Source: a virus (taxonomy: Duplodnaviria > Caudoviricetes). From it: a stretch of DNA of 64,000 nt. Positions 22,508-49,318 of the stretch are shown here, one piece after another (within the stretch, counting starts at the first letter, position 1; each line of letters opens with the position of its first letter). The notes below the pieces were generated by a model. The model saw nothing but the letters and a program-made list of their open reading frames with translations. It did not search any database and was not told the DNA's origin. A program made the translations under genes and the position numbers. The stretch covers positions 276,342 through 340,341 of IMG/VR virus record IMGVR_UViG_3300037501_000111; one strand, given 5' to 3'.

Positions 22508-22520
22508 CTCCCATTCACGA
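22508..22520 (+). promoter_or_regulatory. Dispersed motif copy 12 (CTCCCATTCACGA)
   Basis: 5 nt after the stop at 22502; a second partial copy GGCTCCCATG overlaps ATG 22546. Confidence 0.75.
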
Positions 22521-22955: not shown

Positions 22956-23270
22956 ATGAGCAATAAGAATCTTCCCATGGACGAGCAACTTTTTATGGCC
23001 GAGCAGTATGCGCCAATGCCGGAGGCCATGCTTGCCTTGCAGGCCAAGGATGTTACCCTAAATAACAAGATGGGCGACTTTCCTGCTGGTTCCAAGTTTG
23101 CATTTGCCATTCTTCTTGGCGATGCATCGGCTGTCGTTCTGATTGATGAGAATCAGAAGGAGCATGCATTCCGACTGAATGTTAGTGTGGGCGAGGCGGT
23201 CGATGTGGATGAGTTGAAGGAGCCATATGGTGATGAGTGCGGTCATGATCATTGTGGTCATGAGCACTGA
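22956..23270 (+). CDS. Hypothetical protein with His-rich tail
   Basis: Ends ECGHDHCGHEH. Confidence 0.7.
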   Translation: MSNKNLPMDEQLFMAEQYAPMPEAMLALQAKDVTLNNKMGDFPAGSKFAFAILLGDASAVVLIDENQKEHAFRLNVSVGEAVDVDELKEPYGDECGHDHCGHEH

Positions 23271-23317
23271 AAGGATTTAGGCTACGACTCAGACATGTAC
23301 ACAGACGTGTGTGCATG

Positions 23318-23453
23318 AATGGGGCTAACGAGTTAACGGTTAGCTTTCGACCTAGTAAGCTTCTCAACAGTAAACTAGGAAGGGTCAAAGGGGTGCCAAC
23401 AAACCCATAACCTGTTGGAGCGTAGGCGGTCAAGTCTTATACCTAGCCCCATT
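23318..23453 (+). ncRNA. Candidate multi-stem structured RNA
   Basis: Closing stem ATGGGGCTA/TAGCCCCAT with internal stems CCTAGT/ACTAGG and CCAACA/TGTTGG; non-coding gap. Confidence 0.55.
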
Positions 23454-24081
23454 TCTTGGCATTATTGCTGGTGTCAATAATCGTCTCAGGTCTACTACCA
23501 TATCAGACCGAACATAATCATATGGTCCGTGTTGCTAACTTCTGAAGTAATAGATAGTTAGGGCCACTCCTGGCCATACCCGTGAGCGTGAGTTTTCGCT
23601 TCCGTTTTGAGTACGAAACACATAGGCGTGTGCTTAGATACGAACTTGCAAGCGTATCGGTGCAGGCGCCTATAAAACGGAGGATCAATTTTACAATTGC
23701 AAATAAGATATTAGTTATGGCCGAAAATGAAGCGCAAAGATTGCGTCAAGCCCTCAACCAATTAGGTAATTAGATATGATTCGTATTCGATATTCTGACG
23801 ATAGCATTAAAGAATACAAGAGTTTGGACGTTGCTAACTTCATGGTTCTCAATACTCTATTCTCTTCTGGTGGTATGATTGCCCCTATTGAAGCCGTAGA
23901 GATCATGGGAGTAACTACCAGCGGAGCTACTGTCGAAAGAATGCTCAAGATTAAGCTTGGAGCAATCGAATCTGACTGGTAGATGCTGAGGATTGATTTA
24001 ATGGGTCGCACTTACCGCCAATATAGGGCCGCCAGTGGAGCCGGTCCGCCCAGGTACACATACACACAATAGGAATAATCT

Positions 24082-24890
24082 ATGATTCTTGGTGAATACA
24101 GTGATCACGCCCAAGTAAGTTCCATTCGATACGAGCAGCCTGAATTGTCTGCTGATGATCCGATTTAGTTTTATCCCAAGGGACTATGGACTCCGATTAT
24201 CGACCCTGATAACATTGCTTATCACTCGATGTTCAAGCCATTCAATCTCAATCAATATCTGTATCCAAGGCCACCGATTGACATGGGGCTCGTGCCTCCC
24301 ATTCATGGCGCCCCGCCCAACGTGCTTAGGATGCCGCTCAAGTTTTCCAATACTTCCTATGTGATTCCACGTCAACTAGAAGCGCTAGAGCCTGTGATTC
24401 GTCGAGTGGCCGAGTATGAGAAATATCTGTGCTCGGATAATAGCATCGATCATGATGATACTTTCTGTCATATCACCTATGATTCATCAACAGTAAATGC
24501 TGGAGAGTATCATCGTTTCCCTGGTTTCCATGGTGATGGTATTCAAGGGACGAAACTAACACCCAAGGTATTCGTAGAGCATTCATACATTCTTACGAGT
24601 GCGCCTCTTACTGAGTTTTGTTTGCAGCCCTTCTTCCTGAAACACTTGGATGAAGCCAAGCACAACTATTTCTTGGAGTTTGATAGGCAAGCTAAGGAAA
24701 CTAATGTTTACGGTTCGCTTCCAAACCATCTATACCTAATTGATCCGTACATCGTACCCCTAAGATCAAACAGGCTACAAACCGCGTGTTCTTGCGTATC
24801 GCATATGCATTTACAGAACTTCAGCATCCCAAGAACACAATCAATCCACTCTTCTTTGGTCAACAGTATGATAATTCGCAAGAAGGTTAA
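24082..24890 (+). pseudogene. Putative 2OG-Fe(II) oxygenase-like gene (lesions: TAG 24166; 7-nt repeat collapse ~24750)
   Basis: FPGFHGDG (HxD); restoring one TACATCG unit gives PYIVHRTP..RVFLRI (distal His and Arg); contains motif variant CTCCCATTCATGG at 24296-24308. Confidence 0.5.
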
Positions 24891-24891
24891 T

Positions 24892-25605
24892 ATGAACGGT
24901 GCAATTTACGTTTCTGATTCTGGCAACACCAAAATCATGGGTTCCAAGAAAGTGGATGCAACTTACGCATCTATCAAGCATACCTGTCCTAGCTCCTGCC
25001 CCCTCAAAGATGAGGGTTGCTACGCTCAAACTTCGTTCGTGGGAATGATTAACCTGCGAATGCAGCGGCGAGCCAAGGGAAAATCAGCAATAGATGTGGC
25101 TCGGTCAGAAGCCAAGGCCATTGATAACTCTTATAACGGCGGCCCCGTTCCACAAGGACGAGCATTGCGCCTGCATGTGGCTGGTGATTCTCGTACTCTT
25201 TTGGGCACGAGGATTATCAACAAGGCTATCAAGCGATGGAAGAATCGTGGTGGTGGATCCGTATGGAGTTACACCCACGCATGGAAGCATATCCCTCGGG
25301 AAGAGTGGAGTAATGCTTCTGTTCTAGCTTCTATTCAGAACACTTCTGAAGTTGAAGCGGCTCGGGCGCAAGGATATGCACCTGCGATTGTCGTAGATTA
25401 TCATAAAAGTGATAAGGCATATCAACTTGCAGGCAGTGATACAAAGTTTATTCCATGTCCAAACCAAACTCGTGGTGTCGGCTGTTCAGATTGTAAACTC
25501 TGTTTTAATGCAGATCGATTGTTTGCAACAAATATGGGTATTGCTTTTGCCGCTCATGGAGTAAAGAAAGAGCAAGTTAAGCGTCATCTGACCGTCCTAA
25601 AATAA
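24892..25605 (+). CDS. Cys-rich phage protein (Gp88/radical-SAM-like)
   Basis: TCPSSCP..GCYA, RLHVAGD, YTH, CPNQ..CSDCKLC; own ATG after TAA 24890; ORF-track fusion to 24229 is likely an artefact. Confidence 0.6.
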   Translation: MNGAIYVSDSGNTKIMGSKKVDATYASIKHTCPSSCPLKDEGCYAQTSFVGMINLRMQRRAKGKSAIDVARSEAKAIDNSYNGGPVPQGRALRLHVAGDSRTLLGTRIINKAIKRWKNRGGGSVWSYTHAWKHIPREEWSNASVLASIQNTSEVEAARAQGYAPAIVVDYHKSDKAYQLAGSDTKFIPCPNQTRGVGCSDCKLCFNADRLFATNMGIAFAAHGVKKEQVKRHLTVLK

Positions 25606-48949: not shown

Positions 48950-49318
48950 ATGTCTAAAGGTATGTGGGAAATTCTAGTTCCGACCGAACGCCGGTCGGCC
49001 CCTGGAAAATTTTACACTACCAGGTTTCATCGTGTTTGGGATGGAAAAGTTAGAGAAATTACCGGAGGTTTAACGGTAATGGTACCTGCACGTGGACAAT
49101 GGGTTAATCCTGTAACTGGACAATTATTTCAAGAGAGAATGATTCCAGTTAGGATTATAGCAACTCGTGAAGAGATTGAACAAATGATTCCAGTTAGGAT
49201 TATAGCAACTCGTGAAGAGATTGAACAAGTTGTTGACCTGACACTCAAATATTATGACCAAATTGCTGTTCTTTGTTACAAGATTAGTGATGAAGTTATT
49301 TTGAAATATAAGGATTGA
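48950..49318 (+). CDS. Conserved phage protein carrying a 15-aa tandem duplication
   Basis: MIPVRIIATREEIEQ twice. Confidence 0.75.
   Translation: MSKGMWEILVPTERRSAPGKFYTTRFHRVWDGKVREITGGLTVMVPARGQWVNPVTGQLFQERMIPVRIIATREEIEQMIPVRIIATREEIEQVVDLTLKYYDQIAVLCYKISDEVILKYKD
49139..49228 (+). repeat. Exact 45-bp tandem duplication
   Basis: atgattccagttaggattatagcaactcgtgaagagattgaacaa x2. Confidence 0.95.

What the first reader, a model, noticed from the sequence alone, without database searches (positions are those of the whole stretch)
23280..23580. About 300-nt non-coding, hairpin-rich locus with a tRNA/tmRNA-like closing stem
Seen: GGGGCTA...TAGCCCCA closes a 136-nt multi-stem domain. The 5' part has GCTTTCGAC (cf. 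tmRNA GGATTCGAC) and the 3' part has a T-loop-like GGTCAAGT. Further hairpins lie at 23461-23481 (ATTATTG/CAATAAT) and 23489-23509. It lacks the G3.U70 Ala determinant and is too short for a one-piece tmRNA. The closing strands resemble the dispersed motif (GCCCCATT; reverse strand GCCCCATTCATG), so it could base-pair with or mimic motif RNA. Inference: an unknown phage ncRNA.
Basis: partly seen in the sequence, partly recalled or inferred. Interest (0 to 1): 0.6.

Follow-up and report, generated by a model that had tools for sequence, protein, structure and literature searches.

The report
New large structured RNA in megaphages
The gap holds a roughly 400-base, intricately folded non-coding RNA that matches no catalogued RNA family, is conserved in a small group of giant soil and freshwater phages, usually sits just before a phage tRNA gene, and is neither tRNA-like nor tmRNA-like.

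Summary
The non-coding, hairpin-rich locus is real, but it is larger than reported.

**Homologues.** I found them in 13 other distinct metagenome or virus contigs, including records of 481 kb and 498 kb. In every contig whose gene layout was read, the RNA lies directly after the same 100-aa protein gene.

**Structure.** An alignment of 14 sequences supports 16 helices:
- 96% of cells are paired.
- 44 of 103 pairs show compensatory changes, against 22.9 +/- 2.6 in shuffles and 3-11 in slid controls.
- G-U pairs outnumber A-C 133 to 18, so the + strand RNA is what folds.
- At least two pseudoknots are supported by covariation.
- One hairpin loop keeps an 8-base palindrome through compensatory changes. 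This suggests self-association.

**What it is not.** There is no Rfam 15 hit at E<=10 and no tRNA or tmRNA call. The motif-mimic idea is not conserved.

**Context.** In most relatives a tRNA-Glu follows the RNA, and in two it abuts the RNA's last conserved base. The window lost that tRNA in a deletion but kept the RNA intact.

**Best reading.** This is a new family of large, ornate phage RNA, closest in kind to GOLLD and ROOL. Its function is unknown. Expression could not be tested.

The scan had noted this stretch before only on this same DNA.

The parts
23286..23689 (+). Whole conserved structured RNA: 404 nt here, up to about 450 nt in relatives that carry an insertion.
   Evidence: nhmmer and alignments. 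Conservation starts about 15 nt after the stop codon of the upstream gene. It ends at 23689, where a tRNA begins in L025 and L033.
23290..23321 (+). P1: 5' terminal long hairpin (2 + 10 bp, 4-nt loop).
   Evidence: 9 of 10 counted pairs show compensatory changes (helix 1). Pairs checked in the window.
23322..23346 (+). P2: 8-bp hairpin. Its loop holds a palindrome, GUUAAC here and GUAC in the 13 other sequences.
Evidence: 100% paired in 14 sequences, with an A-U / G-C split of 7:7 at one pair (helix 2). Loops are shown.
23348..23382 (+). P3 with a small distal extension, P3a.
   Evidence: 4 of 8 pairs show compensatory change (helix 3).
23390..23418 (+). G-run plus the P6 hairpin (23396-23401 / 23413-23418). 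This is the site of a variable expansion segment, absent here. GGG 23391-23393 may pair with CCC 23404-23406 in the P6 loop (tentative pseudoknot).
   Evidence: P6 covaries (helix 7). Between the G-run and P6, relatives carry 24-45 nt of extra hairpins with their own covarying stems and a loop-strand pairing that switches C-G to U-A. The window-specific pseudoknot is an inference.
23425..23448 (+). P8: 3 + 3 bp hairpin with a bulge.
   Evidence: 3 of 6 pairs show compensatory change (helix 8).
23449..23483 (+). P9/P10 pseudoknot. Its loop (23469-23471) pairs with 23449-23451 to form P9.
   Evidence: P10 is kept in all 14 sequences with quite different sequences, for example an unrelated 8-bp stem in L033. 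P9 occurs in three covarying versions and is found in 12 of 14; it is only 3 bp in the window, and the automatic duplex search missed it there and in L033 (helix 9, 70, 82).
23489..23526 (+). S1/P11 pseudoknot. P11 is 23497-23503 / 23520-23526.
   Evidence: All 5 core P11 pairs covary and are 100% paired (helix 10). S1 has a 3-bp core of nearly invariant bases (invariant ACCGA in the P11 loop), so it has no covariation and remains tentative.
23535..23600 (+). P12 (23535-23561), P13 (23562-23575, invariant CUCC loop) and P14 (23585-23600): first half of the highly conserved 3' domain.
   Evidence: helices 11-13. Lay-down of a soil relative shows a double compensatory change, 23537/23538 with 23559/23558. 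The 3' domain averages 88% nucleotide identity against 70% for the neighbouring gene.
23601..23681 (+). Long arm P15-P16-P17. P15 (23601-23608 / 23674-23681) contains the GGAGG-like word as a helix strand. There is a 13-nt one-sided bulge at 23609-23621. P17 is the hairpin 23637-23658.
   Evidence: helices 14-16. L025 changes C-G to U-A inside the GGAGG strand. The whole P17 stem is swapped but kept in L028.
23643..23652 (+). P17 loop with an 8-nt palindrome (CUUGCAAG): candidate kissing-loop self-association site.
   Evidence: The palindrome is kept by paired changes. L028 has CUCGCGAG; L031 and L032 keep it with G-U wobbles. The paired positions flank a 2-nt centre, so they cannot pair within one hairpin (inference).
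23682..23689 (+). 3' tail, the last conserved bases. In L025 and L033 the next base is the first base of tRNA-Glu.
   Evidence: A tentative 4-bp long-range pairing of 23683-23686 with 23383-23386 has no covariation (helix 4).
22956..23270 (+). Co-conserved upstream gene: a 104-aa all-beta protein with a Cys/His-rich C-terminus and no known family.
   Evidence: 16 homologues. Every contig fetched through them carries the RNA right after the gene where sequence was available. No Pfam hit. AF2 pLDDT 66, seven strands, no fold match.
22509..22520 (+). Nearest upstream copy of the one-stranded dispersed motif, a probable phage promoter. It is the likely start of the transcript that carries the RNA.
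   Evidence: 15 copies, all on the + strand, against 0.6 expected. A copy lies 0.8-1.4 kb upstream of the RNA in L022, L023, L002, L003 and L013. No + strand terminator-like site was found between 22300 and 24400. Transcription itself is inferred.
23717..23773 (+). 18-codon remnant of a 93-aa gene. It marks the right edge of a deletion that removed a 210-aa gene, tRNA-Glu and about three small genes present in the closest relative.
   Evidence: tblastn of L022 proteins against the window: only the last 17 residues of the 93-aa protein match, at 23720-23770, and no match for the 210-aa, 81-aa and 90-aa proteins. No tRNA-Glu in the window.

Best explanation
Window 23286-23689 (+) encodes a member of a previously uncatalogued family of large (about 400-450 nt), multi-pseudoknotted non-coding RNAs. 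The family is carried by a small clade of very large phages (contigs up to 0.5 Mb) from soil, rhizosphere, freshwater and sludge.

**Shown:**
- It is conserved and strand-specific.
- It folds into about 16 covarying helices plus at least two covariation-supported pseudoknots.
- It has a variable expansion segment.
- Its 3' domain is more conserved than the neighbouring protein gene.
- It is tightly linked to an upstream 100-aa protein gene and, in most relatives, to a downstream tRNA-Glu.

**Inferred:**
- It is made as part of a polycistronic + strand transcript started at the phage promoter-like motif about 0.8 kb upstream.
- Its 3' end is cut free by RNase P where the tRNA abuts it, and by other RNases elsewhere.
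- It then acts in trans as a stable folded particle rather than as a leader for any one gene.
- The conserved palindromic loops of P17, and perhaps P2, let copies pair loop-to-loop. It would then work as a dimer or higher oligomer, as the phage RNAs ROOL and GOLLD do, possibly together with the co-conserved Cys/His-tailed protein.

Its cellular target is unknown.
For: - **Homologues and synteny:**
- **Structure:** 103 predicted pairs, 44 with double changes. 96.0% of cells paired against 87.1% in shuffles, 44 against 22.9 +/- 2.6 pairs with compensatory change (0 of 500 shuffles reach this), and slid controls of 3-11.
- **Strand:** G-U 133 against A-C 18.
- **Pseudoknots and expansion segment:**
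- **Independent compensatory pair changes** in a soil metagenome contig.
- **Conservation:** 3' domain 88% nucleotide identity, upstream gene 70%, downstream 150 nt 49%.
- **No known family:** Rfam gathering threshold and E<=10 on the window, E<=1 on five homologue loci. No tRNA or tmRNA.
- **tRNA-Glu downstream:** called by ARAGORN in 9 of the 13 distinct homologue loci and by Rfam only in L033; it abuts the RNA end in L025 and L033.
- **Not tied to a downstream gene:** the window lost the tRNA and four neighbouring genes but kept the RNA intact.
- **The GGAGG word is a helix strand** with a compensatory change.
- **Loop palindrome** kept through paired changes.
- **Precedent:** phage RNAs near tRNA arrays that assemble through kissing loops (bioRxiv 10.1101/2024.12.08.627333; PMC12990946).
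Against: - **Expression and ends are untested.** No transcript data exist for it, so expression, ends and stability are all inferred.
- **Thin support for oligomerisation.** It rests on one 8-nt loop palindrome with three or four independent variants and one 4-6-nt palindrome. Short palindromes are common by chance.
- **A cis role is not excluded.** The RNA always follows the same gene by about 15 nt, so it could act as a 3' UTR, stabiliser or processing signal for that mRNA.
- **Small sample.** The family has about 14 distinct sequences, several of them close relatives, so some covariation counts repeat the same events.
- **No function from neighbours.** Neither the neighbouring protein's fold nor any nearby gene gave a clue.
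Confidence: 0.68

Rival explanations
1. Cis-acting structured untranslated region. The fold serves the transcript it sits in. It could act as a 3' stabiliser or processing platform for the upstream 137-aa/104-aa gene message, or as a long 5' leader that governs maturation of the downstream tRNA-Glu. It would not act as a free RNA.
For: - It starts about 15 nt after the stop codon of the same gene wherever gene context could be read.
- There is no promoter-like motif or terminator of its own.
- tRNA-Glu follows it in most relatives and abuts it in two.
Against: - What follows it varies: a tRNA at 0 nt, a tRNA at about 90 nt, a 210-aa ORF, or a gene remnant. The window lost the tRNA without any damage to the RNA, so it is not a leader for a fixed downstream gene.
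- 400-450 nt with about 16 helices, several pseudoknots and an 88% conserved 3' domain is far more than known mRNA stabilisers need.
- The Shine-Dalgarno-like word is locked in a covarying helix, and no conserved start codon follows it.
Confidence: 0.15
2. RNA subunit of a dedicated ribonucleoprotein, or a ribozyme. The RNA works only with the co-conserved 104-aa Cys/His-tailed beta protein, or it catalyses a reaction itself, for example its own release from the polycistronic transcript.
For: - Linkage of the RNA to the 104-aa gene is strict in all loci where both could be seen.
- The protein has invariant Cys and His residues at its end that could bind a metal.
- Size, pseudoknots and blocks of invariant unpaired bases are typical of ribozymes and RNP RNAs. 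This is general knowledge, stated by the Breaker laboratory for large ncRNAs.
Against: - The protein has no known RNA-binding family or fold.
- No known self-cleaving or other ribozyme model matches.
- Nothing tested here shows binding or catalysis.
Confidence: 0.12
3. One reading: a tRNA-like or tmRNA-like domain closed by the GGGGCTA / TAGCCCC stem, which pairs with or mimics transcripts carrying the dispersed motif.
For: - The 7-8 bp stem exists in the window and in L033.
- The window's minus strand at 23314-23325 matches 10 of 12 bases of the motif.
Against: - ARAGORN finds no tRNA or tmRNA here. Rfam tRNA and tmRNA models give nothing at E<=10.
- The stem is 5 bp or shorter in 9 of 14 sequences and excludes two covarying helices.
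- The 'T-loop' is a variable hairpin loop.
- The motif likeness is absent from most relatives at these positions, although several relatives carry the motif elsewhere.
Confidence: 0.02
4. A DNA-level element, such as a replication origin, a packaging site or a cluster of protein-binding palindromes, rather than an RNA.
For: It contains many inverted repeats and a palindrome, and no transcript data are available.
Against: - G-U pairs outnumber A-C pairs 133 to 18. The helices therefore work only on the + strand RNA and would be mismatched on the other strand.
- Whole stems are replaced by unrelated sequences while pairing is kept. That is not how protein-binding sites evolve.
- The pseudoknots have no DNA counterpart.
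Confidence: 0.03

Closest known systems
GOLLD RNA (Rfam RF01998)
   Same: - Large, ornate, phage-borne RNA with pseudoknots.
- Conserved 3' domain with a more variable 5' part.
- Lies next to or among phage tRNA genes.
- Function unknown.
- Assembles through loop-loop contacts (10.1101/2024.12.08.627333; PMC12990946).
   Different: - No match to the GOLLD covariance model even at E<=10.
- About half the size.
- Different helices and conserved words.
- Found in roughly 0.5-Mb environmental phages, not in Lactobacillales or mycobacterial prophages.
- Oligomerisation here is only inferred.
ROOL RNA (Rfam RF03087)
   Same: - Phage or prophage RNA of about 550-600 nt.
- Many helices and several pseudoknots.
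- Often near tRNA islands.
- No protein partner known.
- Forms homo-oligomeric cages by kissing loops.
   Different: - No match to the ROOL model.
- Shorter.
- Strictly linked to one small protein gene.
- Very narrow distribution.
Stable RNAs 'species 1 and 2' of the phage T4 tRNA gene cluster (own knowledge, not checked here)
   Same: - Phage-encoded non-tRNA stable RNAs.
- Co-transcribed with phage tRNAs and released by the tRNA-processing enzymes.
- Function still unknown.
   Different: - The T4 RNAs are about 120-140 nt and simple.
- There is no sequence relation.
- The comparison rests on memory only.
tmRNA
   Same: A G-rich 5' word and pseudoknots.
   Different: - No tRNA-like domain.
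- No conserved acceptor stem.
- No T arm.
- No tag reading frame.
- No ARAGORN or Rfam match.

Membership tests
tmRNA | tRNA-like domain: a 5'/3' acceptor stem with G3-U70, a T arm, and a CCA-ready 3' end. | tested here: not met
   ARAGORN finds no tmRNA in the window. Rfam tmRNA models give no match at E<=10. The proposed acceptor-like stem is conserved in only a minority of homologues and conflicts with covarying helices.
tmRNA | Internal tag reading frame ending in a stop codon. | tested here: not met
   No frame is kept across homologues. Indels of 1-2 nt and a 24-45-nt variable insertion break all frames.
tRNA / tRNA-like structure | Cloverleaf or T-loop motif recognised by tRNA models. 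| tested here: not met
   Rfam tRNA and ARAGORN hit only the four true tRNAs of the window. The 'T-loop-like' word lies in a loop that varies among homologues.
GOLLD RNA (RF01998) | Match to the family covariance model (sequence and structure of the conserved 3' domain). | tested here: not met
   cmscan of 23100-23900 at E<=10, and of five homologue loci at E<=1, lists no GOLLD match.
GOLLD RNA (RF01998) | Phage or prophage location next to tRNA genes. | tested here: met
   Carried on virus contigs. ARAGORN calls tRNA-Glu 0-750 nt downstream in 9 of the 13 distinct homologue loci, and Rfam alone calls it in L033. Not so in the window itself.
ROOL RNA (RF03087) | Match to the family covariance model. 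| tested here: not met
   No ROOL match.
ROOL/GOLLD-like self-assembling RNA (functional kind, not a homology family) | Homo-oligomer formation through inter-molecular loop contacts. | not testable with these tools
   Indirect only: palindromic loops kept through paired changes. Testing needs native gels, SEC or cryo-EM.
Group I / group II intron, RNase P RNA, known self-cleaving ribozymes | Match to the Rfam model. For introns, also a host gene split by the element. | tested here: not met
   No match at E<=10. The flanks are separate complete genes that differ between relatives.
Riboswitch / cis-regulatory leader | A constant downstream gene whose expression platform (terminator or start site) is part of the fold. 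| tested here: not met
   The downstream neighbour varies and is deleted in the window. There is no terminator. The Shine-Dalgarno-like word is a covarying helix strand with no conserved start codon after it.

The most novel reading that the evidence does not exclude
This is a new class of self-assembling RNA particle, evolutionarily unrelated to ROOL and GOLLD and specific to half-megabase phages. Its protomers would join through the palindromic P17 and P2 loops into a closed oligomer that acts on the host's translation or tRNA machinery, possibly with the Cys/His-tailed protein as a partner. That would make RNA-only or RNA-dominated quaternary assemblies a recurrent, convergent invention of phages.
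Probability: 0.3. Interest if true: 0.85.

Novelty: new variant of a known kind. Interest (0 to 1): 0.66.

Why it matters
Large RNAs with this much conserved structure are rare. Past examples turned out to be ribozymes, RNP cores or, most recently, self-assembling RNA cages (ROOL, GOLLD, OLE).

This would be a further, unrelated family with three useful properties. It is compact at about 400 nt. It has a natural short form (the window) and long forms. It also has a clear candidate dimerisation loop. Together these make it a ready target for cryo-EM and for testing why giant phages place such RNAs next to their tRNA genes.

The strict pairing with one small unknown protein, and a natural deletion variant that keeps the RNA but not the tRNA, give direct handles for experiments.

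Tried and rejected
- **Phage GenBank collection.** No DNA match for the gap or for 8 kb around it.
- **Whole genome.** None is held for the window.
- **Upstream protein in IMG/VR.** A single-protein search found nothing.
- **IMG/VR pattern scans.** Four scans returned only the same two contigs. The five extra hits of the loosest pattern, and three of the nine metagenome hits, were chance matches.
- **Bacterial and archaeal genomes.** A 22-mer of the 3' domain is absent from the genome-contig collection of bacterial and archaeal genomes.
- **3' domain covariance model.** R1 found no second copy in the window and nothing in five more distant megaphage contigs, one of 327 kb. These contigs are fragments, so this shows only that the family was not seen there.
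- **Sequencing runs.** No RNA holder was listed, so expression could not be examined. Contigs of four DNA runs were laid. They added one more relative and near-identical 3' domain pieces, but they cannot show ends or expression.
- **Upstream protein structure.** Moderate-confidence model (pLDDT 66) and no fold match below E = 0.1, so no function was drawn from it.
- **Long-range helix 23383-23386 / 23683-23686.** Proposed by RNAalifold, it has no covariation and is kept only as tentative.
- **Papers.** Those on candidate viral RNAs and genome-language-model RNA mining gave no sign of this family in the text I could search. The supplement of PMC10690425 is not held.

Full report
**The locus**

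Window 23271-23716 is a gap of about 445 nt between a 104-aa ORF (22956-23270) and small ORFs. All genes here are on the + strand.
- ARAGORN and Rfam at gathering thresholds find only four ordinary tRNAs elsewhere in the window.
- A permissive Rfam scan of 23100-23900 at E<=10 returns two meaningless snoRNA rows and nothing else.
- The gap folds better than dinucleotide shuffles, z = -3.06.

**Relatives**

The window matches nothing in the GenBank phage collection, and no genome is held for it.
- Through the downstream DUF7227 protein I reached IMG/VR contigs of 210 kb and 481 kb. These carry a homologous gap, with nhmmer E about 1e-57.
- A pattern scan of JGI metagenomes added four more contigs. 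One of these, a 498-kb record, carries the same RNA sequence as the 481-kb IMG/VR contig.
- The upstream 104-aa protein has 16 homologues. Every contig fetched through ten of them carries the RNA immediately after that gene, wherever DNA was available.
- After removing duplicates there are 14 full-length sequences at 60-98% identity, plus three pieces.
- Other holders are soil, freshwater and sludge metagenomes.
- The family was not found in bacterial or archaeal genomes by a 22-mer. It was also not found in five more distant megaphage contigs by a covariance model of the 3' domain, and there is no second copy in the window.

**Extent**

Conservation begins about 15 nt after the upstream stop codon and ends sharply at 23689. 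Mean nucleotide identity:

| Region | Mean identity |
|---|---|
| 3' domain (23530-23689) | 88% |
| Adjacent protein gene | 70% |
| Next 150 nt downstream | 49% |

Pieces of the 3' domain that are at least 99% identical occur in three further metagenomes.

**Structure**

- RNAalifold on the 14 sequences gives 103 pairs in 16 helices, 44 of them with compensatory double changes.
- Counting that structure gives 96.0% paired cells. Pairs with compensatory change number 44, against 22.9 +/- 2.6 in column shuffles (0 of 500 reach it) and 3-11 when partners are slid by 1-3 columns.
- G-U pairs outnumber A-C 133 to 18, so the fold belongs to the + strand RNA.
- A soil contig adds an independent double compensation in P12.

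Per-sequence duplex searches show three further features:
- The hairpin at 23461-23481 (P10) is kept in all 14 sequences, sometimes with unrelated sequence. Its loop pairs with the strand just upstream (P9), which occurs in three covarying versions and forms a pseudoknot. P9 is only 3 bp in the window.
- P11 (all five core pairs covary) encloses the invariant word that can pair with 23489-23493.
- Between the G-run at 23390 and P6, relatives carry an expansion segment of 24-45 nt. It has its own covarying hairpins and a covarying loop-strand pairing. The window, L031 and the partial sequence L030 lack it.

The window's helices were checked base by base.

- The 5' strand of the proposed stem is the 5' strand of P2, which is 8-10 bp in all 14 sequences and has one pair split 7:7 between A-U and G-C.
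- Its 3' strand is the 3' strand of P8, which also covaries.
- The proposed stem reaches 8 bp in only two sequences, 6 bp in three, and 5 bp or fewer in nine. It is at best an alternative pairing in some members.
- The likeness to the dispersed motif (15 copies, all on the + strand) is limited to the window and its nearest relatives. It is absent at these positions in most others, although several relatives carry the motif elsewhere.

**Context and processing**

- A tRNA-Glu(UUC) follows the RNA in most relatives. ARAGORN calls it in 9 of the 13 distinct homologue loci, and Rfam alone calls it in L033.
- In L025 and L033 the tRNA starts at the base after the last conserved RNA base. In five others it starts about 90 nt later, after a conserved spacer with small hairpins. 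In three it comes after an inserted ORF.
- RNase P cutting at the tRNA 5' end would therefore create the RNA's 3' end. This is an inference from established tRNA processing.
- Compared with its closest relative L022, the window has lost a 210-aa gene, the tRNA-Glu, two small genes and most of a 93-aa gene. Only that gene's last 17 codons survive, at 23720-23770. The RNA next to this deletion is intact, so it does not depend on the tRNA or on any downstream gene.
- The nearest promoter-like motif lies at 22509, with corresponding copies 0.8-1.4 kb upstream in relatives. No + strand terminator-like site lies between 22300 and 24400.
- The Shine-Dalgarno-like word near the 3' end is one strand of the covarying helix P15. 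L025 changes C-G to U-A there, and no conserved start codon follows it.

**A hint at mechanism**

- The 10-nt loop of P17 holds the palindrome CUUGCAAG.
- In L028 the whole hairpin has been replaced, yet the loop reads CUCGCGAG. L031 and L032 keep self-complementarity with wobble pairs.
- The two changed positions flank a 2-nt centre and cannot pair within one hairpin. The simplest reading is pairing between two copies, a kissing loop or extended duplex.
- The P2 loop holds GUAC in 13 sequences and GUUAAC in the window, again a palindrome after a 2-nt insertion.
- Phage RNAs ROOL and GOLLD lie near tRNA arrays and assemble into cages partly through such loop contacts.
- I therefore propose self-association as the working model. 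The sample of variants is small.

**The neighbouring protein**

The 104-aa protein is all-beta with invariant Cys and His at its end. It has no Pfam family and no fold match. Its strict linkage suggests a partnership with the RNA, but nothing tested here shows it.

**Comparison and novelty**

- In kind, this is closest to GOLLD and ROOL: large, ornate, phage-borne, next to tRNA genes, of unknown function.
- It fails the membership test for both families, having no covariance-model match. It also fails for tmRNA, tRNA, introns, RNase P RNA and riboswitch-type leaders.
- I found no description of it in the literature I could search. The scan had noted the same stretch once before on this same DNA, not elsewhere.
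- I rate it a new family within a known kind of system.

**Limits**

- Expression could not be tested, because no RNA run was listed.
- Several helices (S1, the window's P4 pairing, the long-range 4-bp helix) rest on invariant bases.
- About a third of the sequences are close relatives.

Noticed in passing
window 23690-23775, compared with L022:3764-5533: The window carries a deletion of about 1.7 kb relative to its closest relative. It removed a 210-aa gene, tRNA-Glu(UUC), 81-aa and 90-aa genes and the first 76 codons of a 93-aa gene. The 18-codon ORF at 23717-23773 is the leftover C-terminus.
   Followed up: partly
L002:2815-2903, L003:2698-2785, L013:418-509(-), L014:734-822(-), L023:3770-3862: In some relatives a conserved non-coding spacer of about 90 nt lies between the RNA and tRNA-Glu. 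It has three small hairpins, one of them covarying. It is absent from the window, L022, L025, L031 and L033. It may be an optional 3' module of the RNA or a tRNA leader.
   Followed up: partly
L032:954-1087: One relative has a divergent 3' domain with a 25-nt deletion that removes P13-P14, and a called 130-aa ORF on the opposite strand overlapping it. Even so, the distal helices and the self-complementary loop are kept. It may be a decaying or recombinant copy.
   Followed up: no
L022:1997-2335 and the same position in L023, L026, L029, L030, L033: A tRNA_bind (PF01588) domain protein of about 110 aa is conserved about 1 kb upstream of the RNA in relatives. It has no tblastn match anywhere in the 64-kb window.
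   Followed up: partly
window 381-52276 (15 sites), also L002, L003, L013, L022, L023: The 12-nt word TCCCATTCAYGG occurs 15 times, always on the + strand, against 0.6 expected. It recurs in related phage contigs, usually just ahead of gene starts. It looks like a phage-specific promoter, as an earlier follow-up of this scan also concluded.
   Followed up: partly
window 49138-49227: A perfect 45-bp tandem duplication (two identical copies, head to tail) lies inside the ORF 48950-49318.
   Followed up: no
window 24229-25605: In the window, a 458-aa ORF covers the DUF7227 domain and an N-terminal region that matches phrog_1843. Relatives encode DUF7227 as a separate protein of about 237 aa, with another gene in front of it. 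The window ORF may therefore be a fusion or a frame artefact.
   Followed up: no
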